The notes: generated from the letters alone by a model not told the origin. A DNA stretch of 64,000 nt from Vulcanimicrobiota bacterium (GCA_019235885.1 JAFAKB010000005.1:21409-85408), one strand, 5' to 3'. Positions 2 through 44,738 are shown, counted from the stretch's first letter. Program-made: numbers and translations.

Positions 2-2944
2 CGTTCGGAGAATCCCTCGAACGTCAACGTTCGGTATCTTTATGTGGATTCTAGTGACGCGCTCATGGCGCTCGACGACCCGACGTGGAAGATCCTGGGA
101 ACGAGCGTTCAGCTTCCGCAAACGAGCCAGCTCAAGATTAGCGGACTGAATCTCGGCGAGATCCTGGACACGGTCGGCGACTACCCTGGAATCGCGCCAT
201 GGATCGGAAACCGCGATCAACTCCGAGCCATCCTGAAGTCCGCCGATAGCGCGAGCGTCGTCGGCGGACAGAAACGCCGTCTCGGTCGCTTTCTGTTCGC
301 GTGCCGCGCGCAGCAGTTCCGCAGCCAAGTGCAGGCGCTCGTGAAGGAGATGCAAACCGGAGGGATCGCCAACGTCACGTTCCACTTCTTGTCGGGTTTG
401 GCCGGCGGAACGGGGAGCGGAAGCCTCGTTGACGCGGTTTGTCAGGTTCGGCAGATGTTCCCGACACCGAACTATCGCAATTTGATTTACGCGCTCCTTC
501 CCGATAAGCTGCCCGCCGCGAACCGGGCCGGCGCCAACTACCATGCCAACGGGTACGCCGCGCTCCTCGAACTCAACGCGCTCGACGTCGGCGAATATCT
601 TCCGTGGGACGTTTCCGGCACGTTGAAGACGCGTCTCGACCTTCAGGATTCCTTCAACTGTTGCTACCTGTTCACGGACGAGAACGAAGATCACAACAAA
701 GTCGACATCGACACCGAGCTGCCCGACATCGTGGCGGCGTTCTTGTTCCAGAAGATCGTCGCGACGCGCGACTTCCTCTGGAGCACGTCGGACGGTGACT
801 CGATCAAGCGCCAGGAACGCTTCGAGCTCGGAAGCCAAGCGGACGAGAAAGAGCGTGCTCCGGCTAGCGGTAAGCCGGAGCGCACCCGCCGCTTCTTCAC
901 CTTTGGCGTAAAGCAGATCGCATACCCGGAGGAAGAGATCCGCGAGTATCTCACCTACTCGTTCGCGCAGCAAGCGGTTCTTCAGCTCGAGTACAACAAT
1001 TGGACCGACGCCTTCGGCTATGTCGACCAGCCGGTGAACACGAGCTTTGCCGAGTTCGTGCGGAATCCCGAGATGGAATTGCGCTGGTCGATCGGTGATG
1101 ACGCGCTCATGCTCTCGACCGGTGTGCTTCCCGACGAAAAAAAGAACTCCAAGTGGAAGCCGATCCAGAAATACTGGCTCGACATCATTCCTAACTTCAA
1201 AAGCACCGTCGTCGAGATCGCCAAGGGGAACCAGGCGAGCTGGATCGACGAGCTTATGAAGATGTGCGAAACCGCATACTCGGACAACTATCGTGACCTC
1301 GGCGTGCAGAAGTTCTACGAGGTCAAGCGCGGCGAGATCGTAGACCACGTTCGAGAGATCCGCCGCATCATTGAATCGGACTTGTTCACCGACTGGAAGA
1401 ATGGAGTCCGCTCGATCTCGGAAGTCTCCCAAGTCATCGCGGCCTTGGTGAAGTGGCTCGACGAGAAAGCGGCGCGCTTCGACGAGCGCGCCACGAAGAC
1501 GTCGGGCTTGATCAAGGACGCCGAGCAGCGCGTGCAGAGCGATGCGAGGCAGTGGGCCGCGGTCGGAATGGTCGGGAAGCTGCTCGGCCGGCGACAACGG
1601 CTCTTCGACGACGAAGCCGTGAACCTGCAACAGCTCTACACGTACCGCACGATCCTGCAGGCCAGCTCATTCGCGAAATCGCTCCTGCAATCGCTCTCTG
1701 CCGCGATCAACGATTTGGCCGCAGACGTGAACGCCGCCGCAAGCACAATATCCCAGGCCTTCGCGGAGTTCGGCAAGGACCTTGCGGCTCGACTCGTCGA
1801 CGACGGCGACGACGACACGCGGGCTCTCGTGATCCGCTTCTACAAGCCGGATGTCGTCAAGGACTTCGCAAAGGCTCTGACGCGCAACGAGGACGAGCAG
1901 AAGGTTCAGACGACCGCGGTCCGAGTCGCGCTCGCGGCGCTCGTCGCCGACAACCTCTCGTTCGCGGTCTTCAATCAGCGGGTCGACGCTCAGCGGTTCC
2001 AAGATATCGTCGCCGCGACGTGTGAGGAACAGGCGCTCCAGGCGCATGAGGCTTACATCAGCAGTAACAAAGACCGGGAGCGCGTGCTCGGGGTGAGCAT
2101 CGTCGAGCGCCTTCAGAAGGAGTACGGGGGAAACCGTGAGTCGTTGCGCGCCTACGTGACCGGAATCGTATCGCGCGCAAAGAACTTCATCGTGTTCAAC
2201 CCCGCCGAAGTGACGCGCGTCGTACCCGGAAACGAGAGTTTGGGACCGATGTTCTCGTTTTCGACGATCATCTTGCCGGAAGCGGCCAACCAAGCCGAGT
2301 TCCGCAAGATCCTCGAAGAAGAGTTTGTCAACGCTCGTCCGGGCCAGAAAGAGATCGTCACCAACCCGAAGCGGCCGAACGAAATCACCCTCATCAACGT
2401 CACGAGCGCGTTCCCCGCGCGCGACGTTCAAGACGTCTCCTTTCTGCGCGACAAATACGACGCGCGCGTCGGCGCGACCGACGGCGACCAAGCGCGCTTC
2501 GAGCTCCATTCGGAAGGCGACGGAACGCAGTTCCCGAGCCTGTTCCTGCGCAAGATCGGACCGTCGGAGATTCTCCCGGAGCTGCTGCTCGCTTCGGCGC
2601 TTTCGATCGTTCAGACGCTTGAGGACCCGGATACCGGCCGGAAGGGTGTCTACCTGATGCGGAACGATGCCCAGGGCCGCGAGGCGCCGCCGCTCTCGCT
2701 GGGAAAATCGCTCACCGACGCGGTCGATGCGCTGGACGCGCTCTCGTTCGACGCACTTGAAACGCAGATTCGCGGCTTGCTCGCCCGCGACTTCCTGCAC
2801 CAGGCGAAACGCGCCGAGCTGCTGGCGAACGTCGGTGCGCAAGTCGACGCGGTGAAGACCGAGCGGCCCAACCCGCTCGACAAGACGCGACAGGCGTACA
2901 TCGCTGCGCAAGCGCGCGTAGAGGATCTGCTGAAAGGAAACTGA
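2..2944 (+). CDS. Giant tubulin/FtsZ-superfamily protein (tubulin-like domain plus ~800-aa helical C-terminal region); 5' end cut by window edge
   Basis: Frame is open from nt 2 (no stop before the GTG at 44), so the N-terminus lies outside the window. Tubulin signature GGTGSG at nt 404-421 (FHFLSGLAGGTGSGSLVDAV). Long Ala/Leu/Gln-rich helical remainder. Confidence 0.75.
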   Translation, partial: RSENPSNVNVRYLYVDSSDALMALDDPTWKILGTSVQLPQTSQLKISGLNLGEILDTVGDYPGIAPWIGNRDQLRAILKSADSASVVGGQKRRLGRFLFACRAQQFRSQVQALVKEMQTGGIANVTFHFLSGLAGGTGSGSLVDAVCQVRQMFPTPNYRNLIYALLPDKLPAANRAGANYHANGYAALLELNALDVGEYLPWDVSGTLKTRLDLQDSFNCCYLFTDENEDHNKVDIDTELPDIVAAFLFQKIVATRDFLWSTSDGDSIKRQERFELGSQADEKERAPASGKPERTRRFFTFGVKQIAYPEEEIREYLTYSFAQQAVLQLEYNNWTDAFGYVDQPVNTSFAEFVRNPEMELRWSIGDDALMLSTGVLPDEKKNSKWKPIQKYWLDIIPNFKSTVVEIAKGNQASWIDELMKMCETAYSDNYRDLGVQKFYEVKRGEIVDHVREIRRIIESDLFTDWKNGVRSISEVSQVIAALVKWLDEKAARFDERATKTSGLIKDAEQRVQSDARQWAAVGMVGKLLGRRQRLFDDEAVNLQQLYTYRTILQASSFAKSLLQSLSAAINDLAADVNAAASTISQAFAEFGKDLAARLVDDGDDDTRALVIRFYKPDVVKDFAKALTRNEDEQKVQTTAVRVALAALVADNLSFAVFNQRVDAQRFQDIVAATCEEQALQAHEAYISSNKDRERVLGVSIVERLQKEYGGNRESLRAYVTGIVSRAKNFIVFNPAEVTRVVPGNESLGPMFSFSTIILPEAANQAEFRKILEEEFVNARPGQKEIVTNPKRPNEITLINVTSAFPARDVQDVSFLRDKYDARVGATDGDQARFELHSEGDGTQFPSLFLRKIGPSEILPELLLASALSIVQTLEDPDTGRKGVYLMRNDAQGREAPPLSLGKSLTDAVDALDALSFDALETQIRGLLARDFLHQAKRAELLANVGAQVDAVKTERPNPLDKTRQAYIAAQARVEDLLKGN

Positions 2945-34859: not shown

Positions 34860-35180
34860 TCAGTCGAGCTGGCGGAGGAACGTCAGCGCGCGCATCATCT
34901 CGTCGATCGCGAGCGGGCCTTGGCCGGCCTTCACCGCGTTGACGAAGGCGTGCTCGAAGTAGTAGCGCAGCGCGACGCGCGCCGCGGCGTCGAGCGCGCC
35001 GCGCACGGCGGCCATCTGGCGCAGCACGTCGATCACGTACGCCCCTTCGTCGAGCTGCGCGAGGATGTGGTCGATGTGGCCGCGCGCCGTCTTCAGGCGG
35101 TTGGTGACGTCCGTCAGGGGTTCGCCTGCCAGCGGCCGGCGCAAGGGGTCGAGTCGGCGAGAGCGCGGCATGTCGTTCAC
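34860..35180 (-). CDS. CsoR/RcnR-family (DUF156) transcriptional repressor, Cys-less variant
   Basis: NRLKTARGHIDHI..YVIDVLRQMAAVRGAL..RYYFEHAF matches the family helix pattern, but the protein contains no cysteine at all. Confidence 0.75.
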   Translation of the reverse strand: MNDMPRSRRLDPLRRPLAGEPLTDVTNRLKTARGHIDHILAQLDEGAYVIDVLRQMAAVRGALDAAARVALRYYFEHAFVNAVKAGQGPLAIDEMMRALTFLRQLD

Positions 35181-35189
35181 CTACACCCG

Positions 35190-35203
35190 TACCCCACGGG
35201 GCA
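35190..35203. promoter_or_regulatory. CsoR-type GC-rich inverted repeat (candidate operator)
   Basis: TACCCC-AC-GGGGCA (5 of 6 positions palindromic), 10 nt upstream of the repressor start, within the 136-nt divergent region to the S8-M4 gene. Confidence 0.45.
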
Positions 35204-35316
35204 GGGTTAAGCCTCGCGACGTCGGCCTCCGGCGAGCCGCGCCGCAGTTCCGGCCGATGACTAGCCCTAGCAAGAATTGGAGGGCAAATCAAGAACCCAT
35301 CCGCCGGGAGGGTTTG

Positions 35317-38300
35317 ATGTCCGACCAGCGGCCCGTCAGAGCGATCCTCGTGAAAGGCCGGTTGCCGCCGCAGGGCGCCGCGTTCACGCTGTCCGGCGCG
35401 CCGCTGGGGCTGGCGCGGACGACCTTCGAGTTCACCTCGCGCCCGCTCTTCACCAGCATCGGCCGCGACGGCGCGCTCGGCATCGCGGCTGCGCCGTCGA
35501 CGTGGCACATCGCCGAGGCGGCGGAGCTCGACGCCGCCCACGGCTGGGACGTTTGCCACGCGCTCGCCGGCAGCGGCCTGGGTCTGGCCGGAAGCGCGGT
35601 GGAGTTCGCCGAGCCCGATCTGCAGCAGCAGTGGACGTTCGGCGAGGACGCGGCACACGCGCTTCGCGCGGCCGGCGGCTGCGACGAGATCTGGAATCAG
35701 GACGGAACCTTTCCGCCGCATCCTGCCGACGACGCGCACCCGCTGTGGTACCGCGACGCGGAGCATTCGAACTTCGCCGGCGGCGCCGGCGACGGCGCGG
35801 GGATCTGCATCGCGCACCTCGACACCGGCATCTCGCCGCACGACACCCAGCCCGTGAACCTGCGCGCCGATTTGCAGCGCAACTTCGTCGACGCCAACTT
35901 TCCGAACGACGCGACGGACCGCTCACCGACGTCCGGGCTCTTGAACCTGCTCGGCCACGGGACGGCGACGATCGCGATTCTCGCCGGCGCCGGCGCGGGC
36001 GGCGGCGCGCCGATCGGCGCCGCGCCCGGCGCGTCGGTCGTTCCGGTGCGCGTCGCGAACGGCGTCGTGCTGTTCAGCAACAGCTCCGTCGCGCAAGGCT
36101 TCGACTACGTGCACGCGCTGCTGCAAGATCCCGCGACGCGCGTGCACGTGGTGACGATGAGCATGGGCGGGCTTGCCTCGCAGGCGTGGGCCGACGCGAT
36201 CAACGCGCTCTACGAGGCGGGCGTCTTCGTGGTGACGGCGGCCGGCAACAACCACGGGAACTTGCCGACGCGCAACATCGTCTACCCGGCGCGGTTTCGG
36301 CGCGTCGTCGCGGCGACCGGCGCGATGTCCGACTTCACACCGTACGCCGACCAGCGGGGTCTCGTGATGGCCGGAAACTACGGACCCGCGAGCAAGATGG
36401 ACACCGCGCTCGCGGCGTTCTCGCCGAACACGCCCTGGGCGCGGATCGGCTGCCCGCACACCGTCGATCACAACGGCTCTGGAACCTCGTCGACCTCACC
36501 GCAGATCGCTGCGGCGGCAGCGCTGTACTGGCAAGCGCATCACGCCGCGCTCGACGATCCGGCGCAGTATCCCGAAGCGTGGATGCGGATCGAGGCGGTG
36601 CGCGCGGCGCTGTTCGGCGCGGCGGCGCGCAAGACCGCGGACGTCGAGCATTTCGGGCAAGGAACGTTGCGCGCGCTCGAAGCGCTCGCGATCGCCCCGC
36701 CCGCGAGCGCGACGCTCAAGAAACAGCCGCCCGACAGCGCCTCGTTCGCGCTGCTCCGCATCTTCACGGGACTCGGCCTCGCCGCGGCGGCCGGCTCGCC
36801 GCAGCAGCGCATGCTCGAGGTCGAAGCGCTGCAGCTCTCGCAGAGCGCGGCGCTCGAAGCGCTCTTGCCCGATCCCGAGCAGCCGCCGGACGATCCGAAG
36901 CAGCGCGCGGCGGTCGCCGAGGCGCTGGCGAGCGATCCGCACGCCTCGCAGGCGCTGCGCGACGCGCTCAAGCCGCTGGTGACCGGGCAGATCCATCCCG
37001 TCGCGACGCCGGCCGCGACGCCGCTGAGCGCGATGGACAAGCTGCATCTCGAGCACGCGATGCAACCGCAGGTCTCCCCGCCCGGGAAACGCCGGTTGCG
37101 CGTCTACGCCTACGATCCGGCGCTCGAGGTGCAGCTCGAAACGTATGCGATCAACCAGGCGGTGGTCGACGTGCGCTGGGAAGGGCTCGAGCCCGGGCCG
37201 GTCGGCGAGTACATCGAGGTCGTCGACGTCGACCCGTCGAGCCGCTGCTGCTACGCGCCGGTCGACCTCGACGACCCGTACGTGCTGGTGCAGAACGGCC
37301 GCGCGCCGGCCGAGTCCGACGCGCAGTTCCACCAGCAGATGGTCTACGCGGTCGCGATGAAGACGATCGAGCACTTCGAGCACGCGCTCGGGCGCGTCGC
37401 GCTGTGGTCGCCGCACGCGACCGGCAGCGGCACGAGCTACGCGGCGAGCTACGTGCAGCGCCTGCGCATCTACCCGCACGCGCTGCGCGAGGCGAACGCG
37501 TACTACAGCCCCGACAAGAAGGCGCTGCTGCTCGGGTACTTCCCGGCGCAAACGAAGAACGTCGGCGTCAACGCGCCCGGCACGCTGGTGTTCGGGTGCC
37601 TCTCGTACGACATCGTCGCGCACGAGACGACGCACGCGCTGCTCGACGGCCTGCACCGCCGCTACAGCGAGCAGACGAACCCGGACGTGCTGGCGTTCCA
37701 CGAAGCGATGGCCGACATCGTCGCGCTGTTCCAGCACTTCACCTTGCCCGAAGCGCTGCGCGACCAGATCGCGAAGACGCGCGGCGATCTCACCCAGGAG
37801 AACCTGCTGAGCGAGCTCGCGTACCAGTTCGGTCAGGCCGAGAAAGGACACGGCGCGCTGCGCGACGCGCTCGGGCACTACGACGACACCGGGACCTGGA
37901 TCGCCAACAAGCCGACCGGCGAGGAGTACATGAGCGCGACCGAACCGCACGACCGCGGCTCGGTGCTGGTCGCCGCGGTGTTCGACGCGTTCCTGCGCAT
38001 CTATCGCATCCGCTGCGCCGATCTGTTTCGGCTGGCTTCGGCGGGGACCGGCGTGCTGCCGCCGGGGAACATCCCGCACGATCTGGTCGAGCGGCTCGCG
38101 CAAGAGGCGAGCAAGGTCGCGAAGCAGTGGCTCGACATCTGCATCCGCGCGCTCGACTACTGCCCGCCGGTGGACCCGACGTTCGGGGACTACCTGCGCG
38201 CGCTGATCACCGCCGACCGCGACCTCGTCCCCGACGACGACCGGTCCTACCGCATCGCGTTCATCTCGGCGTTCCGCGACCGCGGAATCTTCGCGCAGGG

Positions 38301-38931
38301 CGTGCGCTACCTCGCCGAGCGCAGCCTGGCGTGGGAGCCGCCGCCGCAACCGTTCAAGAACCTCAAGCACATTCTTGCGCGGATGACGCTGAACTGGGAT
38401 CTCGACTCGAAACGGCGTGAAGCATACGACACCTCGAACCACAACGCAGCGCTGTTCCACGGCTGGCTGATGTCGGACGACGTCAGCAAAGACGAGCTCG
38501 ACATGCTGTGCCTCTACCGCGGCGGGTGCGAGGATTTCGAGATCGTCAAAGGCATCCCGGGGACCCTCGCCAACTTCGAGGTGCACTCGGTTCGCCCGGC
38601 GCGGCGGATCGGCCCGGACGATCAGACGCGCACGCAGCTGATCGTCGAGATCACGCAGACGTGGCGCAGCCCCGGTTACAACGACTACCGCGGCGGCGTC
38701 ACGCTGATCGTCGACCTGGTGGCGAACGAGGTCCGCTACGTCGTCCGCAAGCGGGTCGACAGCGAAGCGCGCTTTCGTGCGCAGCAGGGGTTGCCGGACG
38801 CCGGCGGTGCGACCGCGCTCAGCGACGGCGAGGAGGCCTCGCTGCACGACAACTACTACGACCCGCGCAACGTCGGCAGGGAACCGTTCGCGATGCTGCA
38901 CCGTTCGAGCGCAACGATGGTGGGCCGATGA
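35317..38931 (+). CDS. 1204-aa cytoplasmic dual protease: S8 subtilase domain fused to a thermolysin-like (gluzincin HExxH) metalloprotease domain
   Basis: ATG at 35317 after GGGAGG. No signal peptide. S8 triad D169 (AHLDTG, nt 35821), H214 (GHGT, nt 35956), S391 (GTSSTSP, nt 36487). NAYYSP..LLLGYF, HETTH (nt 37621-37635) and FHEAMAD (E796). Confidence 0.85.
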   Translation: MSDQRPVRAILVKGRLPPQGAAFTLSGAPLGLARTTFEFTSRPLFTSIGRDGALGIAAAPSTWHIAEAAELDAAHGWDVCHALAGSGLGLAGSAVEFAEPDLQQQWTFGEDAAHALRAAGGCDEIWNQDGTFPPHPADDAHPLWYRDAEHSNFAGGAGDGAGICIAHLDTGISPHDTQPVNLRADLQRNFVDANFPNDATDRSPTSGLLNLLGHGTATIAILAGAGAGGGAPIGAAPGASVVPVRVANGVVLFSNSSVAQGFDYVHALLQDPATRVHVVTMSMGGLASQAWADAINALYEAGVFVVTAAGNNHGNLPTRNIVYPARFRRVVAATGAMSDFTPYADQRGLVMAGNYGPASKMDTALAAFSPNTPWARIGCPHTVDHNGSGTSSTSPQIAAAAALYWQAHHAALDDPAQYPEAWMRIEAVRAALFGAAARKTADVEHFGQGTLRALEALAIAPPASATLKKQPPDSASFALLRIFTGLGLAAAAGSPQQRMLEVEALQLSQSAALEALLPDPEQPPDDPKQRAAVAEALASDPHASQALRDALKPLVTGQIHPVATPAATPLSAMDKLHLEHAMQPQVSPPGKRRLRVYAYDPALEVQLETYAINQAVVDVRWEGLEPGPVGEYIEVVDVDPSSRCCYAPVDLDDPYVLVQNGRAPAESDAQFHQQMVYAVAMKTIEHFEHALGRVALWSPHATGSGTSYAASYVQRLRIYPHALREANAYYSPDKKALLLGYFPAQTKNVGVNAPGTLVFGCLSYDIVAHETTHALLDGLHRRYSEQTNPDVLAFHEAMADIVALFQHFTLPEALRDQIAKTRGDLTQENLLSELAYQFGQAEKGHGALRDALGHYDDTGTWIANKPTGEEYMSATEPHDRGSVLVAAVFDAFLRIYRIRCADLFRLASAGTGVLPPGNIPHDLVERLAQEASKVAKQWLDICIRALDYCPPVDPTFGDYLRALITADRDLVPDDDRSYRIAFISAFRDRGIFAQGVRYLAERSLAWEPPPQPFKNLKHILARMTLNWDLDSKRREAYDTSNHNAALFHGWLMSDDVSKDELDMLCLYRGGCEDFEIVKGIPGTLANFEVHSVRPARRIGPDDQTRTQLIVEITQTWRSPGYNDYRGGVTLIVDLVANEVRYVVRKRVDSEARFRAQQGLPDAGGATALSDGEEASLHDNYYDPRNVGREPFAMLHRSSATMVGR

Positions 38932-40307
38932 GCGCCGCCTACCGCGCGAAAGTTCGCATGTACCGCCACGGCCTGGGCGACTGTTTCTTGATTTCGCTGC
39001 CGCGCGACGGGGAAGTTGCGCCGTACACGATCATGATCGACTGCGGCGTCATCCTCGGCACCCCCGACGCGCAGGCGAAGATGAGAGCGGTCGTCGCCGA
39101 CGTCGCCAAGACGACGAAAGGCGCCGACGGCCGCGGCAAGGTCGACCTGCTGATCGCGACGCACGAGCACTGGGACCACCTCTCCGGCTTCGTGCAAGCG
39201 CCGGACGAGCTGGCGGGCATCGACTTCGCCGAGGTGTGGCTGGCCTGGACCGAAGACCCGAACGATCCGCAAGCGAAACGGCTCGCGCAGGAGCGCGGCA
39301 GCGCCGTGCGCGCGCTGCAGCTCAGCGAAAGCCGCCTGCGGCTCGCCGGCGCCGGCGAGACCGCCGACCAAGTCGGCGATTTCCTGACCTCGTTCTTCGG
39401 CGTCGCGAGCGGAAGCTCGACCAGCGACGCGCTCGAGGTCGTGCGCGGCCTCGCCAAATCCAAGCCGCCGCGGTACTGCTCGCCGAGCGATCCGCCGGTG
39501 CAGCCGCCGGGAACGTCGGTGCAGCTGTTCGTCCTCGGCCCGCCGCGCGACGAGCAGCTCTTGAAGAAGACGGAAGTGGCGGCGAGCAGTCCGGAGACGT
39601 ACGGCTTGCTGCAGCAGATGTACGGCGTCGACGCCTCGATCGCCGACCTCTCGCACTTCGCCGGCGCGCTCGACACCGTCGATCCGGACGCGCCGTTCGA
39701 TCCGATGCAGACGATCCCGTTCCCGGTCGCGCAGGCGATGCCGTTCTTCGTGCAGCGCTACTTCGGGAGCGACGCCGACCCGGCCGGCGACGGTCCGGCA
39801 TGGCGGCGCGTCGACAGTGCGTTTCTGGACGCGGCGCCCGCGCTCGCGCTCCAGCTCGACAACGCGACGAACAACACCAGCCTCGTGCTGGCGATTCAGC
39901 TTCAGAACGGCGACGTGCTGCTGTTCCCAGCCGACGCGCAAGTCGGCAACTGGCTCTCGTGGCAGAACACGAAGTGGTCGGTCGGCGGACAGGACGTCAC
40001 CGGGCCGGACCTGCTCGAGCGCGCGATCTTCTACAAAGTCGGCCATCACGGAAGTCACAACGCGACGCTCAAGGCGCACGGCCTGGAGCTGATGGACAGC
40101 CTGCAGCTCGCGATGATTCCGGTCAACGTGCAGATGGCGCAGCAGAAGCGCTGGAACCGCATGCCGCTCACCGCGCTGGTCGACGCGCTGAAGGCCAAAA
40201 CAAACGGCGCCGTCGTTCAGGCCGACCTCGACCTCCCGGCCAACGCGCGTTCCGTCGCGAGCTCGCCGGACGACCCCTCGCTCTGGTACGAGGTAACGAT
40301 CCCGTAA
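38928..40307 (+). CDS. MBL-fold metallo-hydrolase (ComEC-like subtype), no signal peptide
   Basis: ATG overlaps the upstream stop (ATGA at 38928-38931). HxHxDH motif THEHWDH (nt 39159-39179) and a later YKVGHHGSHN motif. Confidence 0.85.
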   Translation: MSAAYRAKVRMYRHGLGDCFLISLPRDGEVAPYTIMIDCGVILGTPDAQAKMRAVVADVAKTTKGADGRGKVDLLIATHEHWDHLSGFVQAPDELAGIDFAEVWLAWTEDPNDPQAKRLAQERGSAVRALQLSESRLRLAGAGETADQVGDFLTSFFGVASGSSTSDALEVVRGLAKSKPPRYCSPSDPPVQPPGTSVQLFVLGPPRDEQLLKKTEVAASSPETYGLLQQMYGVDASIADLSHFAGALDTVDPDAPFDPMQTIPFPVAQAMPFFVQRYFGSDADPAGDGPAWRRVDSAFLDAAPALALQLDNATNNTSLVLAIQLQNGDVLLFPADAQVGNWLSWQNTKWSVGGQDVTGPDLLERAIFYKVGHHGSHNATLKAHGLELMDSLQLAMIPVNVQMAQQKRWNRMPLTALVDALKAKTNGAVVQADLDLPANARSVASSPDDPSLWYEVTIP

Positions 40308-41798: not shown

Positions 41799-43301
41799 TC
41801 AGCCGACGGCTTCGCCGTCGGCGAAGGTTTGTGCGACGCGGACGCCGTCGAAGGAACAGCTTACGATCGGATCGCCTTCTAAGATGACGAAGTCGGCTGC
41901 GTAGCCCGGCGCGAACCGGCCGGTGTGCGACTCGGCATGGCCGAAGCGCGCGGCGTCGTAGGTGTACATCAGCAGCGCGTCTTCGATGCTGAGGCGTTCC
42001 TCGATGTTGTGGTGGTTTGCGGCGGCGCGCATGCCGTCGAGCGGGGAGAGCTTGCAGACGGGGCTGTCGTCTCCGCCCACCAGCGTCGCGCCGGCGCGCT
42101 TCGCCGAGCCGAGCGCGTTCATCGTGCGCGCGCGCCGTGCGCCCAGGCGGACGTCGTACATCGCGCCCGGATGGCCCCAGTAGGCGTCGAACTGCGGCTG
42201 CATCGAGAGAAAAAGGCCGAGCCGGGCGGCGCGCGCGATCTGCTGCGGCGTCGCGATCTCGAAGTGCTCGATGAAGTGGCGGTTCCGCGGCGACGGCTTT
42301 CCGCCGAGCACCTTCTCCCACGTCGCGAGGCATTGCTCGATCGCGCGGTCGCCGATCGCGTGGACGCCGGCGCTGATTCCGAGGTCTTCCGCCGCTGTGA
42401 AATACGCTTCCACTTCGGCGTCGCCGTGCATGAGGTGACCGCAGCCTTCGCGGTCGGCGTACGGCTCGCTCACGGCAGCGGTTCCGCTCCCGATGCTCCC
42501 GTCGAGGAAGACGTCGCCGCCGACGTACGGCAGGCCCAGCTCCTTCGCCAGCGCCGGATCGCGCTCGCAGATCTTCGGATACCACTTCGCCGGGCCGGCG
42601 TCGCGCAGGGCGGCAATCTCGTGTGCATACGCTGCTCGAGACGGCAATCCGACGAACTGCACGTGCAGGTGCAGTGCTCCCTCGCGCAGCGCCACCTCCG
42701 TAGCACGTTTGTCGGCGGCGCGCCGCTCGGCTTCGGGCACGGCACTCAGCACTTTCGCCTGGGCGCGCCAATTCGCGTCAAGAAAAAGCCGGCCCGTCGG
42801 TGCGCCGTCCGCAGCGCGCTCGATGCCCGGCACGTCGGGCGGCAGATCGACGAACGCAAGCGCTTTGCGGTTCAACACGCACGAGTGTCCGTCGACGCGC
42901 ACCGCCATCGCGACCGCATCCCGGAAGTGTGCGTCGAGGGGCACGGCGGTAGCGGAGCCGCGGTCGTCCCACTGCGACTCGTCGTAGTTGCCGGCCAAGA
43001 CGAATGCGCCGCGCGGCAGCGCCGCGATGCGCCGTTCGAACTCGGCAACGCTGCGGACGCCCGAAAGATCGCGCTCGCCGAGAAAAAGTCCGGTGTCGGT
43101 GAGGTGGACGTGACAGTCGGCGAAGGCCGGATAGACCGCGCGGCCGCCGAGATCCACGCGCCGCACGCCCGCGCCCGCGTCGCCGGGATGCAGCGATACG
43201 ACGCGTCCGTTGTCGACGAGCATGCCGTCGAACCTTTGCCAGCTTTCGTTCGACGGAACATACGAATACACCGGGCCCCCGGTCAGCACATAGGTCGACA
43301 C
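41799..43301 (-). CDS. Metal-dependent amidohydrolase (Amidohydro_3 type)
   Basis: GTG at 43301. FADCHVHL metal motif, VHAIGDRA, HFIEHFE and GGDDSPV. Confidence 0.8.
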   Translation of the reverse strand: MSTYVLTGGPVYSYVPSNESWQRFDGMLVDNGRVVSLHPGDAGAGVRRVDLGGRAVYPAFADCHVHLTDTGLFLGERDLSGVRSVAEFERRIAALPRGAFVLAGNYDESQWDDRGSATAVPLDAHFRDAVAMAVRVDGHSCVLNRKALAFVDLPPDVPGIERAADGAPTGRLFLDANWRAQAKVLSAVPEAERRAADKRATEVALREGALHLHVQFVGLPSRAAYAHEIAALRDAGPAKWYPKICERDPALAKELGLPYVGGDVFLDGSIGSGTAAVSEPYADREGCGHLMHGDAEVEAYFTAAEDLGISAGVHAIGDRAIEQCLATWEKVLGGKPSPRNRHFIEHFEIATPQQIARAARLGLFLSMQPQFDAYWGHPGAMYDVRLGARRARTMNALGSAKRAGATLVGGDDSPVCKLSPLDGMRAAANHHNIEERLSIEDALLMYTYDAARFGHAESHTGRFAPGYAADFVILEGDPIVSCSFDGVRVAQTFADGEAVG

Positions 43302-43319
43302 GTCGACGGAGGTTCTCGC

Positions 43320-44738
43320 ATGCGACGTTCTCTCATCCCTGCTCTCGCTCTCGTCGCGGCACTCGGGTCGACCGCGCTCGCCGATCAAAGCGAACACGTC
43401 AGCTCGCTCGGCGACCAGCGCGCGGTCGGGATCACGATCTACAACTCGGAGCTCGCGCTGGTGCGCGAGCGCCGCCACCTCACGCTTCCGCGCGGCGAGT
43501 CGCATCTCGCGCTGCGGGACGTCAGCGCGAAAATCCAACCCGAGACGGCGCTGCTGACGAGCATCACGGCACCCGGCAAGCTCGCGGTGCTCGAGCAAAA
43601 CTTCAACTACGACCTGCTCTCGCCGCAGAAGCTGCTGGAGAAGTACGTCGGCCGCGACGTCGACGTGGTCAGCTACGACCCGCGCACCGGACAGCGCCAT
43701 ACGGAGCGCGCCCGCGTCCTCTCGACCAACGACGGCGTGGTGCTGCGCTACGCGGACCGCATCGAAACCTCGGTGAACGGAACGCTCTCGTTTCCGTCGC
43801 TGCCGTCCAACCTGCGCGACCGCCCGACGCTCGTCACCGACGTCAGCAACGGCGTCGAGGGCGAGCAGGACGTCGAGCTGACCTATCTGAGCGGCGGGCT
43901 GAGCTGGAAAGCCGACTACACCGCACTGCTGTCGCCGAACGACGACCGCGTCGAGCTGCGCGGCCTGATCACGCTGCAGAACCAGAGCGGCACCGAGTAC
44001 CGCGACGCGGCGGTGCAGCTCGTCGCCGGCGACGTCAACGTGGTGCAGCCGGAGATGAAGGCGCTCGGCGCCGTTCGCTCCGCAGCGCAAGCTGCGCCGC
44101 CGATCCCGCGCCCGACCGAGCAGGCGCTCTTCGAGTACCACCTCTACACGCTGCAGCGGCACACGACCGTCGCCGACAACCAGACGAAACAAGTCGAGCT
44201 GCTCACGGCCTCGGGCGTTCCGGTCGTCAAGACGCTCGAGCTGCGCGGCGCTCCGGAGTACTACAGCGAGGAAGAGGCGGACCTCGGCACGCACCTGAAG
44301 ATCGGCACGTACATCAGCTTCCGCAACGAAGGCGGACAGCTCGGGATCCCGCTCCCGATGGGCGCCGTGCGCGTCTACAAGCGCGACAACTCCGGGACCG
44401 CGCAGTACGTCGGTGCCGACGAGATCGACCACACGCCGAAGGGCGAAACGGTGCGCCTGCACCTCGGCGACTCGTTCGACGTGACCGCGAGCAAGAAACA
44501 GACCGACTTCCGTAGCCTCGGCCACAGCGTCTACGAGTCGGCGTACGCGATCGTCCTGCGCAACGCGAAAAAGACGCCGGAGACCGTGCAGGTAATCGAG
44601 CCGATCCCCGGCGACTGGACGATCGTCGCGTCGTCGCTGCCGCACCGCAAGAGTTCTGCATCGACGGCGACGTGGGCCGTGCGGGTCCCGGCCGAGGGCG
44701 CCGTCACCTTGACGTACCGGGTCCGCACGAAGGAGTAA
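43320..44738 (+). CDS. Secreted DUF4139-like protein
   Basis: ATG at 43320 after GGAGG. Signal peptide (LIPALALVAALGSTALA). YLSGGLSWKADY motif typical of DUF4139. Confidence 0.65.
   Translation: MRRSLIPALALVAALGSTALADQSEHVSSLGDQRAVGITIYNSELALVRERRHLTLPRGESHLALRDVSAKIQPETALLTSITAPGKLAVLEQNFNYDLLSPQKLLEKYVGRDVDVVSYDPRTGQRHTERARVLSTNDGVVLRYADRIETSVNGTLSFPSLPSNLRDRPTLVTDVSNGVEGEQDVELTYLSGGLSWKADYTALLSPNDDRVELRGLITLQNQSGTEYRDAAVQLVAGDVNVVQPEMKALGAVRSAAQAAPPIPRPTEQALFEYHLYTLQRHTTVADNQTKQVELLTASGVPVVKTLELRGAPEYYSEEEADLGTHLKIGTYISFRNEGGQLGIPLPMGAVRVYKRDNSGTAQYVGADEIDHTPKGETVRLHLGDSFDVTASKKQTDFRSLGHSVYESAYAIVLRNAKKTPETVQVIEPIPGDWTIVASSLPHRKSSASTATWAVRVPAEGAVTLTYRVRTKE

What the first reader, a model, noticed from the sequence alone, without database searches (positions are those of the whole stretch)
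35317..38931. Single polypeptide carrying two complete protease active sites (S8 subtilase + thermolysin-like HExxH) and no export signal
The first ~150 aa, which have no signal peptide, contain a pro-region-like segment (..HGWDVCHAL..VEFAEPDL..). The S8 catalytic triad is intact: D169, H214 and S391, with N311 as the oxyanion residue. An ~200-aa Ala/Pro/Gln-rich linker follows. The second module has thermolysin hallmarks in the correct order: NAYYSP, LLLGYF, DIVAHETTHALLD, a third-ligand Glu in FHEAMADIV 23 residues after the second His, and a later EPHDRGSV. A further ~300 aa of unknown function completes the protein. I know of no characterised protein that fuses a serine-protease and a gluzincin catalytic domain. 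Intracellular subtilases are recurrent components of bacterial conflict systems.
Basis: partly seen in the sequence, partly recalled or inferred. Interest (0 to 1): 0.7.

Follow-up and report, generated by a model that had tools for sequence, protein, structure and literature searches.

The report
Two-protease protein paired with MBL nuclease
One cytoplasmic protein carries both a subtilisin-type and a thermolysin-type protease. Its gene is translationally coupled to a ComEC-like metallo-beta-lactamase-fold nuclease gene. Comparison with about 160 related loci shows that the conserved pair is the metalloprotease module plus the nuclease, most likely an uncharacterised branch of the protease-activated-nuclease antiviral systems.

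Summary
ORF 35317..38931 (+) encodes one 1204-aa protein with no signal peptide or membrane segment.

- **S8 domain:** aa 160-449 match Pfam Peptidase_S8. D169/H214/S391 are invariant in 57 of 57 homologues.
- **HExxH module:** H769-E770-x-x-H773, then E796-x-x-x-D800, is intact in 126 of 129 homologous copies. No sequence library recognises it. A high-confidence AlphaFold model (pLDDT 93) matches only M4 peptidases such as thermolysin, vibriolysin and aureolysin.

The stop codon overlaps (ATGA) the start of a 459-aa ComEC-like MBL-fold protein. This protein has about 170 extra, length-variable residues between its catalytic motifs.

In related loci the M4-like module and this MBL are adjacent almost without exception: 77 of 83 loci seeded with the module, and 64 of 64 evaluable loci seeded with the MBL. 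The S8 domain is present in only some of them. Other loci have no N-terminal addition, a TPR-S sensor, a second M4-like copy or HNH+S8. Two annotated plasmid copies sit in defence islands.

Two 2025 papers list a "subtilisin-associated" MBL clade beside the characterised trypsin-MBL and caspase-MBL pro-nuclease systems. Neither mentions a metalloprotease.

Best reading: a new variant of proteolysis-gated nuclease immunity, with an M4-like metalloprotease as core partner. The mechanism is inferred, not shown.

The parts
35306..35312 (+). Shine-Dalgarno-like GGGAGGG, 4 nt upstream of the ATG at 35317
   Evidence: Read directly from the sequence.
35317..38931 (+). Gene for the 1204-aa S8 + M4-like two-protease protein (the end coordinate includes the stop codon)
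   Evidence: It is identical to P0001 (NCBI MAG, Eremiobacterota).
35317..35766 (+). N-terminal region, aa 1-150. It always accompanies the S8 domain. No family match, and no signal peptide.
   Evidence: phmmer finds this region in the S8-fused loci and not in the S8-less ones. Pfam and NCBIfam give no hit. Hydropathy scan.
35767..36726 (+). S8 subtilase domain, aa 151-470. Catalytic codons: D169 (35821-35823), H214 (35956-35958), oxyanion N311 (36247-36249), S391 (36487-36489).
   Evidence: PF00082, E 6e-20. PDB sequence hits to proteinase K and intracellular subtilisins. Triad kept in 57 of 57 domains.
36727..37068 (+). Inter-domain region, aa 471-584, with a conserved helix MLELEALQLSQS (aa 499-510, nt 36811-36846)
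   Evidence: Invariant M499, E503, A504, L505, Q506, L507 and Q509 in alignment A1. No Pfam hit.
37069..38499 (+). Thermolysin-like (M4-fold) metallopeptidase domain, aa 585-1061. Key codons: N727 of NAYYSP (37495-37497), H769-E770-T-T-H773 (37621-37635), E796 (37702-37704), D800 (37714-37716), H878 (37948-37950).
   Evidence: AF2 pLDDT 93.2. Foldseek top 12 hits are all M4 peptidases. The profile against PDB puts thermolysin on top, in register but at non-significant E-values. Motif residues invariant.
38500..38928 (+). C-terminal beta-rich domain, aa 1062-1204, of unknown function. It is conserved with the M4-like domain in both standalone and fused proteins.
   Evidence: In the first AF2 model most of aa 1065-1150 has pLDDT 85-92 and forms beta strands. 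Foldseek gave only non-significant hits. No Pfam hit. Conserved motifs EVHSVRPARR, RGGxT and EPFA.
38928..40307 (+). Translationally coupled (ATGA overlap) gene for a 459-aa ComEC-like MBL-fold protein, a putative gated pro-nuclease. HxHxDH at 39162-39179; HHGS at 40044-40055. Variable insertions lie at about aa 108-292.
   Evidence: ATGA overlap. PADLOC hits LmuA(MBL), RTasMBL and Avs1a. NCBIfam hits 6A-MBL and Avs1a. The profile against PDB puts ComEC on top, E 3.4e-4. Motif and insertion statistics. Adjacency statistics.

Best explanation
The gene at 35317..38931 and the overlapping downstream gene at 38928..40307 form a two-gene cassette of the 'protease plus latent MBL nuclease' kind used in bacterial antiviral defence.

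**Shown here**
- The first protein is cytoplasmic.
- It carries a subtilase domain and a thermolysin-fold zinc-peptidase-like domain, each with a conserved, apparently competent active site, followed by a beta-rich C-terminal domain.
- The second protein is a ComEC-type MBL-fold hydrolase with all metal-binding motifs intact. It has about 170 extra, poorly conserved, length-variable residues between those motifs.
- Across bacteria and one archaeal MAG, the unit that is always kept together is the M4-like module plus the MBL. The S8 domain occupies a variable N-terminal slot.

**Inferred by analogy with the trypsin-MBL (HamM, Avs1a) and caspase-MBL (canu) systems**
- The MBL is made as an inactive pro-nuclease whose insertions block the active site.
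- On infection the protease protein becomes active and cuts these insertions.
- The freed DNase degrades DNA and stops phage replication, at the cost of the cell.

**My further inference**
- The M4-like domain is the only protease present in every member, so I take it to be the licensing protease of the family.
- In the window's subfamily the S8 domain adds a second proteolytic step. It could be an upstream or self-processing step at the conserved inter-domain region, or a second effector activity.
- No NTPase or helicase sensor is encoded in the cassette. Sensing would therefore have to lie in the protease protein itself, with the C-terminal beta domain as a candidate.
For: **The two protease domains**
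- S8.
- M4-like fold: AF2 pLDDT 93.2 and pTM 0.94. The 12 best PDB matches are all M4 peptidases, with probability 1.00 and TM-score normalised to the target of 0.50-0.63. The profile against PDB places thermolysin on top, in register.
- HExxH...ExxxD is intact in 126 of 129 copies.
- No signal peptide or membrane segment.

**Coupling to the MBL gene**
- ATGA overlap of stop and start codons.
- The MBL resembles ComEC. It also resembles the MBL components of Avs1, Lamassu, DRT and 6A-MBL systems.
- HxHxDH is kept in 155 of 158 partners and HHxS in 156 of 156.
- The window MBL has 289 aa from the end of HxHxDH to HHGS, against about 118 aa in the ComEC structure 9vc6. The segments in between vary in length: 90-140, 43-64 and 17-60 aa.

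**Adjacency**
- Seeded with the M4-like module: 77 of 83 loci have the MBL adjacent. Three of the six exceptions are contig ends and one is a frameshifted gene.
- Seeded with the MBL: 64 of 64 evaluable loci have the M4-like module directly upstream.
- The S8 domain is present in 31 of 83 and in 28 of the 39 whose N-terminus could be read. It falls mainly in two clades of the module tree.
- Alternative N-terminal modules: none, TPR-S sensor, Amidase_2, HNH+S8, or a second M4-like copy.

**Defence context and mobility**
- M. extorquens pCMU01: SIR2 x2, AAA ATPase + exonuclease, IS5.
- R. rhizogenes plasmid: CBASS cyclase + SAVED, AAA + HNH.
- L002: SIR2-AAA and a GT4-conflict domain. L085: a TIR protein.
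- 62 plasmids carry the module, 35 of them conjugative.

**Literature**
- MBL pro-nucleases are activated by a partner trypsin-like protease or caspase (PMC12799240; bioRxiv 2025.09.03.673762; PMC12642450).
- A third, uncharacterised MBL clade is associated with subtilases (PMC12799240 fig. S2 legend; PMC12642450).
Against: - No experiment exists for this clade. Proteolytic gating, DNase activity and antiviral activity are all inferred.
- The MBL matches the defence-system HMMs only over its first 80-90 residues and far below the curated cut-offs (32.8 bits against 220; 25.2 against 420).
- I could not model the MBL, so I have not shown that the insertions cover the active site.
- Zinc coordination in the M4-like domain is inferred from motifs and fold, not from inspected coordinates.
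- In the window and in L001 the pair sits among housekeeping genes: PQQ dehydrogenase, Mrp and cytochrome oxidase. Its GC3 equals that of its neighbours, so a defence island is not universal.
- No recognisable sensor NTPase is present, unlike in all the characterised protease-MBL systems.
- Which of the two proteases cuts the MBL is unknown. The published label for the clade is 'subtilisin-associated'.
- The 80-locus samples are the hits closest to the window's sequences, so the architecture frequencies are biased.
Confidence: 0.6

Rival explanations
1. The subtilase is the protease that licenses the MBL nuclease, as the published 'subtilisin-associated clade' label implies. The HExxH module would then be the sensor or regulatory scaffold, taking the place of the STAND or helicase sensor, and its peptidase site would serve only for self-processing or ligand binding.
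For: - S8 D-H-S is invariant in 57 of 57 domains.
- In the characterised systems the protease is the N-terminal fusion on a larger sensor protein (PMC12799240). That is exactly the position of the S8 domain here.
- Other occupants of the N-terminal slot include effector-like domains such as HNH.
Against: - About half of the sampled loci have no S8 domain at all yet keep the MBL directly downstream: 37 'module only', 4 tandem and 11 with another N-terminus, and 8 + 3. S8 therefore cannot be the general activator.
- The HExxH...ExxxD catalytic set is conserved in 126 of 129 copies, which argues for catalysis rather than mere binding.
- One N-terminal alternative is itself a sensor domain, TPR-S.
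Confidence: 0.2
2. The pair is not an immune system. It could be a cytoplasmic protein- and nucleic-acid-turnover module, or an addiction (toxin-like) module, that spreads on plasmids for its own sake.
For: - The window and L001 contexts are housekeeping genes.
- GC3 equals that of the neighbouring genes.
- No PADLOC hit for the protease protein.
- The module is frequent on large rhizobial plasmids.
Against: - The distribution is patchy and spans many phyla, and only the two genes are conserved together.
- Defence-island neighbours occur in several loci.
- The MBL's nearest named relatives are defence MBLs and ComEC.
- Conflict-type domains are swapped at the N-terminus: TPR-S and HNH.
- Two independent papers place subtilase-associated MBLs in the same radiation as proven antiviral pro-nucleases.
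Confidence: 0.12
3. The two active sites belong to two separate genes that were joined by an assembly or frameshift error. Alternatively, the protein is an ordinary secreted protease whose signal peptide lies at an upstream start.
For: None was found. Upstream in-frame starts do exist at 35065-35257.
Against: - More than 120 full-length homologues from many assemblies share the same single-ORF architecture, and so do the S8-fused loci among L001-L083.
- The upstream starts overlap the divergent csoR-like gene and add no hydrophobic segment.
- A strong Shine-Dalgarno sequence precedes 35317.
Confidence: 0.01

Closest known systems
Trypsin-MBL modules of Hachiman (HamM + protease-HamAB), AVAST type 1 (Avs1a), Lamassu and DRT (Tuck et al., Science 2025, PMC12799240; Huang et al., bioRxiv 2025.09.03.673762; Evans et al., bioRxiv 2025.11.14.688446)
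   Same: - A ComEC-like MBL-fold protein with insertions between its catalytic motifs is encoded next to a protease gene.
- The window's MBL hits the Avs1a, LmuA(MBL) and RTasMBL models.
- The protease is fused to a larger protein.
- The genes occur in defence islands and are mobile.
   Different: - The protease classes differ: S8 and M4-like here, not trypsin-like.
- The MBL gene lies downstream, not upstream.
- There is no STAND, helicase, SMC or reverse-transcriptase sensor.
- The HMM matches are far below the family cut-offs and cover only the first 80-90 residues.
- The insertions are much longer, about 170 aa in total.
Canu (caspase-nuclease, CanABC; PMC12799240)
   Same: - The MBL gene lies downstream of the protease gene.
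- The protease is not fused to a classical NTPase sensor.
- The loci carry variable accessory domains, including TPR.
   Different: - The protease there is a caspase or CHAT cysteine protease, and the system has three genes including CanB.
- Here there are two genes, with serine plus metallo active sites in one chain.
'Subtilase/S8-associated' MBL clade (clade 3 of Evans et al.; fig. S2 of Tuck et al.)
   Same: This is very probably the same clade: an MBL gene next to an S8 protease gene.
   Different: - In the text held here, both papers give only a tree label. There is no experiment and no mention of a metallopeptidase domain: the words metalloprotease, thermolysin, zincin and HExxH do not occur.
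- My locus survey indicates that the constant partner is the M4-like module and that the S8 domain is optional.
Peptidase family M4 (thermolysin, vibriolysin, aureolysin, ProA)
   Same: - The predicted fold is the same over the whole mature enzyme.
- NA(Y/F)(Y/F) edge strand, HExxH, E-x-x-x-D and a later His occur in the same order.
   Different: - No Pfam Peptidase_M4 or M4_C match.
- The third ligand Glu lies 23 rather than 20 residues after the second His.
- The protein is cytoplasmic and has no FTP/PepSY propeptide.
- The domain is about 150 residues larger and carries an extra C-terminal beta domain.
- Sequence identity to the M4 structures is 10-14%.
Intracellular subtilisins (ISPs) and the defence-associated S8 protease IetS of the IetAS system
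   Same: A cytoplasmic S8 protease. The PDB hits include ISPs. S8 proteases are known in defence (IetS; from my own knowledge).
   Different: - No PADLOC hit to any model, including IetS.
- No partner AAA ATPase.
- The protease is fused to a metallopeptidase-like module.

Membership tests
Peptidase family S8 (subtilases) | Significant match to the family profile | tested here: met
   PF00082: 72.1 bits against a cut-off of 21.8, covering profile positions 1-288 of 288.
Peptidase family S8 (subtilases) | Catalytic triad in the order Asp-His-Ser, plus the oxyanion Asn | tested here: met
   D169, H214, N311 and S391 are invariant. DHNS is found in 56 of 57 domains and DHDS in the remaining one.
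Peptidase family M4 (thermolysin) | Match to the Peptidase_M4 or M4_C sequence profiles | tested here: not met
   No Pfam or NCBIfam hit at E <= 10, apart from Peptidase_M13 at E 0.21. PDB profile hits to thermolysin are only E 0.56-1.2.
Peptidase family M4 (thermolysin) | Thermolysin two-lobe fold | tested here: met
   AF2 pLDDT 93.2. The Foldseek top 12 are all M4 enzymes, with probability 1.00 and TM-score normalised to the target of 0.50-0.63. This rests on a predicted structure, not a solved one.
Peptidase family M4 (thermolysin) | HExxH, a third-ligand Glu in an ExxxD helix, an NAxx edge strand and a distal catalytic His | tested here: met
   H769, E770, H773, E796, D800, N727-A728 and H878 are conserved. 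The spacing to the Glu is 23 residues, not 20.
Peptidase family M4 (thermolysin) | Secreted pre-pro-enzyme with a signal peptide and an FTP/PepSY propeptide | tested here: not met
   No signal peptide. No FTP or PepSY hit.
Protease-gated MBL pro-nuclease modules (trypsin-MBL, canu) | A ComEC-like MBL gene directly adjacent to, and co-inherited with, a protease gene | tested here: met
   ATGA overlap. Adjacent in 77 of 83 and in 64 of 64 loci. ComEC is the top PDB hit.
Protease-gated MBL pro-nuclease modules (trypsin-MBL, canu) | The MBL belongs to the curated Avs1a, HamM or 6A-MBL families | tested here: not met
   32.8 bits against a cut-off of 220 (6A-MBL) and 25.2 against 420 (Avs1a). These are related proteins, not members of the same family.
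Protease-gated MBL pro-nuclease modules (trypsin-MBL, canu) | Insertions that occlude the nuclease active site | tested here: inconclusive
   Long, variable insertions exist between HxHxDH and the NNTS/DAQ/HHGS motifs.
Protease-gated MBL pro-nuclease modules (trypsin-MBL, canu) | [quoted passage not shown] | not testable with these tools
   This needs biochemistry and plaque assays.
Protease-gated MBL pro-nuclease modules (trypsin-MBL, canu) | The protease is trypsin-like or a caspase, coupled to an NTPase, helicase or other dedicated sensor | tested here: not met
   The proteases here are S8 and M4-like. No NTPase domain was found in the cassette.

The most novel reading that the evidence does not exclude
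The 'subtilisin-associated' MBL clade is really a metalloprotease-associated clade. A previously unrecognised cytoplasmic thermolysin-fold peptidase family, present in at least 580 species-level genomes and undescribed in any family library searched here, would be the ancestral activator of these pro-nucleases. That would make it a fourth catalytic class of immune licensing protease. The family would work as a self-contained two-gene sensor-protease-nuclease system, and the window's subfamily would have built an intramolecular two-protease (serine to metallo, or the reverse) cascade.
Probability: 0.35. Interest if true: 0.75.

Novelty: new variant of a known kind. Interest (0 to 1): 0.62.

Why it matters
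Proteolytic licensing of latent death effectors has just emerged as a general logic of bacterial immunity, with trypsin-like proteases and caspases as the known activators.

This locus points to a large, phylogenetically broad branch. At least 580 genomes of the species-representative collection carry it, as do 62 plasmids. In this branch the constant partner of the nuclease is a thermolysin-fold metallopeptidase that no domain library recognises. No separate sensor protein is encoded.

If confirmed, three things would follow:
- A new protease class would join this immune logic.
- A published clade label would need correcting.
- A compact two-gene system would become available for asking how a protease senses infection by itself.

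The S8 + M4 fusion would also be a rare natural case of two different endopeptidase active sites in one cytoplasmic chain. It would be well suited to study of protease cascades and autoprocessing.

Tried and rejected
1. **Sequence-library searches of the HExxH region.** Pfam, NCBIfam, PADLOC and a PDB phmmer search found nothing significant.
2. **First AF2 model.** It covered aa 585-1204 with a shallow 29-sequence alignment and reached pLDDT 68.9. Foldseek against PDB gave only noise. Taken alone, this would have wrongly 'refuted' the metalloprotease fold. It was rescued by a deeper alignment and trimming to the catalytic domain.
3. **Foldseek against viral structures (BFVD).** No match.
4. 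**Phage genomes.** Only two partial tblastn hits, so the module is not phage-borne.
5. **Look-up of P0026.** The exact protein is not on record.
6. **Literature searches.** Queries combining subtilase, MBL and defence found nothing directly. The relevant papers surfaced through the '6A-MBL' and 'Canu' leads.
7. **Regulation by the divergent csoR-like repressor.** Rejected, because the neighbours are not conserved in other loci.
8. **MBL loops in S8-fused versus S8-less loci.** I compared them to guess which protease cuts. The same short motifs (L..FFG, E.Y, PF) occur in both groups, so the comparison is uninformative.
9. **Upstream alternative starts.** Checked for a hidden signal peptide; none found.

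Full report
**1. The observation**

The + strand ORF runs 35065..38931. The ATG at 35317 is preceded by GGGAGGG four bases upstream. The earlier in-frame starts lie inside or next to the divergently transcribed csoR/rcnR-like gene at 34860..35180 (PF02583) and add only Arg-rich sequence. From 35317 the product is 1204 aa. It is identical to a database protein that NCBI names 'S8 family serine peptidase' from a Candidatus Eremiobacterota MAG.

Pfam recognises only Peptidase_S8, at aa 160-449 (E 6e-20). PDB sequence matches are to proteinase K, intracellular subtilisins and other subtilases.

In an alignment of 29 full-length homologues (53-75% identity), the following are invariant:
- D169, H214, N311 and S391 of the S8 domain;
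- H769, E770, H773, E796, D800 and H878 of the HExxH region.

No hydrophobic N-terminal segment or membrane helix exists in this protein or in the 28 aligned homologues. More than 120 homologues of 1160-1220 aa cover 96-100% of the query. The fusion is real and is not a frameshift artefact.

Three details need correcting:
- The 'linker' is about 115 aa (471-584) and contains a conserved helix, MLELEALQLSQS.
- The metallopeptidase-like domain extends to about aa 1061, leaving about 140 aa unassigned rather than about 300.
- The N-terminal 150 aa matched no family.

**2. Is the HExxH region a metalloprotease?**

Sequence libraries gave only hints:
- Peptidase_M13 at E 0.21, aligned from NAYYSP.
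- Nothing in NCBIfam or PADLOC.
- Nothing in a single-sequence PDB search.
- A family profile against PDB put thermolysin and neutral protease as its five best hits. They align in register over F..LS..D(I/V)(V/I)AHExTHA....A(F/L)(H/N)EA(F/I)(A/S)DI, but only at E 0.56-1.2.

A first AlphaFold model of aa 585-1204, built from 29 sequences, was poor (pLDDT 68.9), and Foldseek found nothing with it.

I then searched 1.84 billion representative proteins with the C-terminal 620 aa. This returned 3956 representatives at E <= 1e-3, many of them free-standing proteins of 600-700 aa. I built a 99-sequence alignment from them and modelled aa 585-1061 alone. The result had pLDDT 93.2 and pTM 0.94.

Foldseek against the PDB returned twelve hits, all M4 peptidases, before a jump to noise at E 0.26:
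- The enzymes are vibriolysin MCP-02, Legionella ProA, PlM4P, thermolysin, aureolysin, gentlyase and neutral protease.
- E-values run from 7e-5 to 9e-3, with probability 1.00.
- TM-score normalised to the target is 0.50-0.63.

The fold is therefore thermolysin-like. Together with the conserved NA(Y/F)(Y/F), HExxH, ExxxD and distal His, this supports a gluzincin active site. It is not a sequence-level member of Pfam M4. It is better described as a new cytoplasmic family of the thermolysin fold.

**3. The partner gene**

The TGA stop of the protease gene overlaps the ATG of the next gene (ATGA at 38928). That gene, 38928..40307, encodes a 459-aa MBL-fold protein with an intact HxHxDH motif (THEHWDH).

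- Pfam sees it only weakly.
- PADLOC matches its N-terminus to the MBL proteins of Lamassu (LmuA, 2.4e-9), DRT (RTasMBL) and Avs1a.
- NCBIfam matches it to the '6A-MBL system MBL-fold protein' (3.9e-8) and to Avs1a (6e-6). All these scores are far below the curated cut-offs.
- A profile of 37 partners finds ComEC as the best solved relative (9vc6_A, E 3.4e-4). The match has two stretches, one over the HxHxDH region and one over KVGHHGS.

From the end of HxHxDH to HHGS the window protein has 289 residues, against about 118 in that ComEC structure. The extra sequence is poorly conserved and variable in length.

**4. What is conserved across genomes**

They come from Proteobacteria, Acidobacteriota, Planctomycetota, Gemmatimonadota, Armatimonadota, Chloroflexota, Bacteroidota, Actinomycetes, Verrucomicrobiota, Clostridia and one euryarchaeal MAG.

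I analysed 83 loci:
- 77 have the MBL homologue immediately downstream.
- Of the other six, three end at a contig edge and one (L072) has a frameshifted module gene.
- One (L056) has the MBL 4.3 kb away, and one (L066) has none within 8 kb.

Architectures of the module protein in these 83 loci:

| Architecture | Loci |
|---|---|
| N150-S8-linker-module | 31 |
| Module alone (about 630-760 aa) | 37 |
| Tandem module-module | 4 |
| Other N-terminal extension | 11 |

*Seeded with the MBL.* Eighty metagenome loci were returned. All 64 with enough upstream DNA carry the module directly upstream. Of these, 28 have S8, 8 have the module alone, 3 have another N-terminus, and 25 are cut by the contig end.

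The invariant unit is therefore the M4-like module plus the MBL. The S8 domain is an accessory that fills a variable N-terminal slot. Other occupants of that slot are:
- a TPR-S sensor domain (L043);
- Amidase_2 (P0168);
- HNH + S8 (L003);
- a second module copy whose catalytic Glu is replaced (L052, L053 and L061).

In a neighbour-joining tree of the module, the S8 fusions fall mainly into one large clade that includes the window and one small clade.

All the catalytic motifs are under strong conservation:

| Motif | Conserved in |
|---|---|
| HExxH...ExxxD | 126 of 129 module copies |
| S8 D-H-S | 57 of 57 domains |
| MBL HxHxDH | 155 of 158 partners |
| MBL HHxS | 156 of 156 partners |

**5. 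Context**

Only the two genes travel together. Several contexts are defence islands:
- On Methylorubrum extorquens pCMU01 the pair lies between an AAA ATPase + 3'-5' exonuclease pair and two SIR2 genes with an IS5 element.
- On a Rhizobium rhizogenes plasmid it lies between a CBASS cyclase + SAVED effector and an AAA + HNH pair.
- L002 has a SIR2-AAA protein and a GT4-conflict domain. L085 has a TIR protein.

Sixty-two plasmids carry the module, 35 of them conjugative. Phage genomes essentially do not carry it.

In the window itself the neighbours are housekeeping genes: PQQ dehydrogenase, Mrp/NUBPL ATPase and cytochrome oxidase. The pair's GC3 equals theirs. Here it is an isolated, apparently long-resident cassette.

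**6. What is known**

- Tuck et al. (Science 2025, PMC12799240) and Huang et al. (bioRxiv 2025.09.03.673762) showed that ComEC-like MBL proteins in Hachiman and AVAST are pro-nucleases. Two active-site-blocking loops are cut by a partner trypsin-like protease.
- Tuck et al. also described caspase-nuclease (canu) loci, in which the nuclease gene lies downstream of the protease gene.
- The legend of their fig. [quoted passage not shown]
- Evans et al. (bioRxiv 2025.11.14.688446) likewise list a clade 3 of MBLs next to S8 subtilisin-like proteases.

Neither paper characterises this clade. In the texts held here, none of the three papers contains 'metalloprotease'. 'Zincin' was absent from the Science paper. 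'Thermolysin', 'zincin' and 'HExxH' were absent from Evans et al..

**7. Mechanism**

Shown here:
- two conserved protease active sites in one cytoplasmic chain;
- obligate pairing of the M4-like module with an insertion-bearing ComEC-like MBL;
- modular N-terminal variation;
- mobility and frequent defence-island context.

Inferred by analogy: the MBL is a latent DNase that is unlocked by cleavage of its insertions after infection.

Inferred from distribution: the M4-like domain is the only protease present in every member, so it is the best candidate for the licensing protease. In the window's subfamily the S8 domain adds a second proteolytic step, either a cascade or autoprocessing step or an extra effector activity. 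With no NTPase sensor encoded, sensing would have to reside in the protease protein itself. The conserved C-terminal beta domain is a candidate, but I have no evidence for its function.

Confidence is about 0.6 for the general model and about 0.35-0.4 for the specific role of the M4-like domain.

**8. Verdict**

- The system is a new variant of a known kind, proteolysis-gated MBL nuclease immunity. Its novel points are a thermolysin-fold protease as the core partner, a double-protease chain, and the absence of a separate sensor.
- Everything downstream of the sequence and structure inference needs experiments.

Noticed in passing
L052, L053, L058, L061 (about 6100-9850 in L052, L058 and L061; 1397-5167 in L053): These proteins carry two tandem M4-like modules upstream of the MBL. 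In L052, L053 and L061 the N-terminal copy reads HQxxH or HVxxH: the catalytic Glu is lost and the His ligands are kept. The C-terminal copy is intact. This looks like a pseudo-protease paired with an active protease.
   Followed up: partly
L003 2539-6786 (protein P0107, 1415 aa): An HNH endonuclease domain (PF01844) is fused in front of the N150-S8-M4 architecture. A DUF4062 protein is encoded nearby.
   Followed up: no
L043 2535-3332; protein P0168: Other N-terminal modules occur on the M4-like protein: a TPR-S sensor domain (PF20308, E 4e-13) in L043 and an Amidase_2 domain (PF01510) in P0168.
   Followed up: partly
L167 5822-6955 (Rhizobium rhizogenes pColt5.8d): A patatin-like phospholipase gene ends 10 nt before a standalone M4-like gene, which is followed by the MBL gene. 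It may be a third, co-transcribed effector. A CBASS cyclase + SAVED pair and an AAA + HNH pair flank the locus.
   Followed up: no
L049 10063-12747: The MBL partner here is 895 aa. A large insertion separates its N-terminal and C-terminal MBL halves.
   Followed up: no
L063 (MAG: Euryarchaeota archaeon ADurb.BinA087): The M4-like + MBL pair also occurs in an archaeal MAG. This could reflect horizontal transfer or a binning error.
   Followed up: no
Protein P0267 (615 aa, standalone): In this family member both the HExxH motif and the downstream HE are degenerate (ARTTV... and FQAAF).
   Followed up: no
window 2-2944 (+): A 980-aa ORF, cut by the start of the window, has a Tubulin_2 domain (PF13809, E 5e-46). 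It lies in a stretch of lower G+C (0.60, against about 0.70 elsewhere).
   Followed up: no
window 34860-35180 (-): A CsoR/RcnR-type metal-sensing repressor gene is transcribed divergently from the protease gene, with a 136-nt intergenic region. The neighbour is not conserved in other loci, so it is probably unrelated.
   Followed up: partly
window 41883-44738 (+): A 951-aa protein whose only Pfam match is a C-terminal DUF4139 domain.
   Followed up: no
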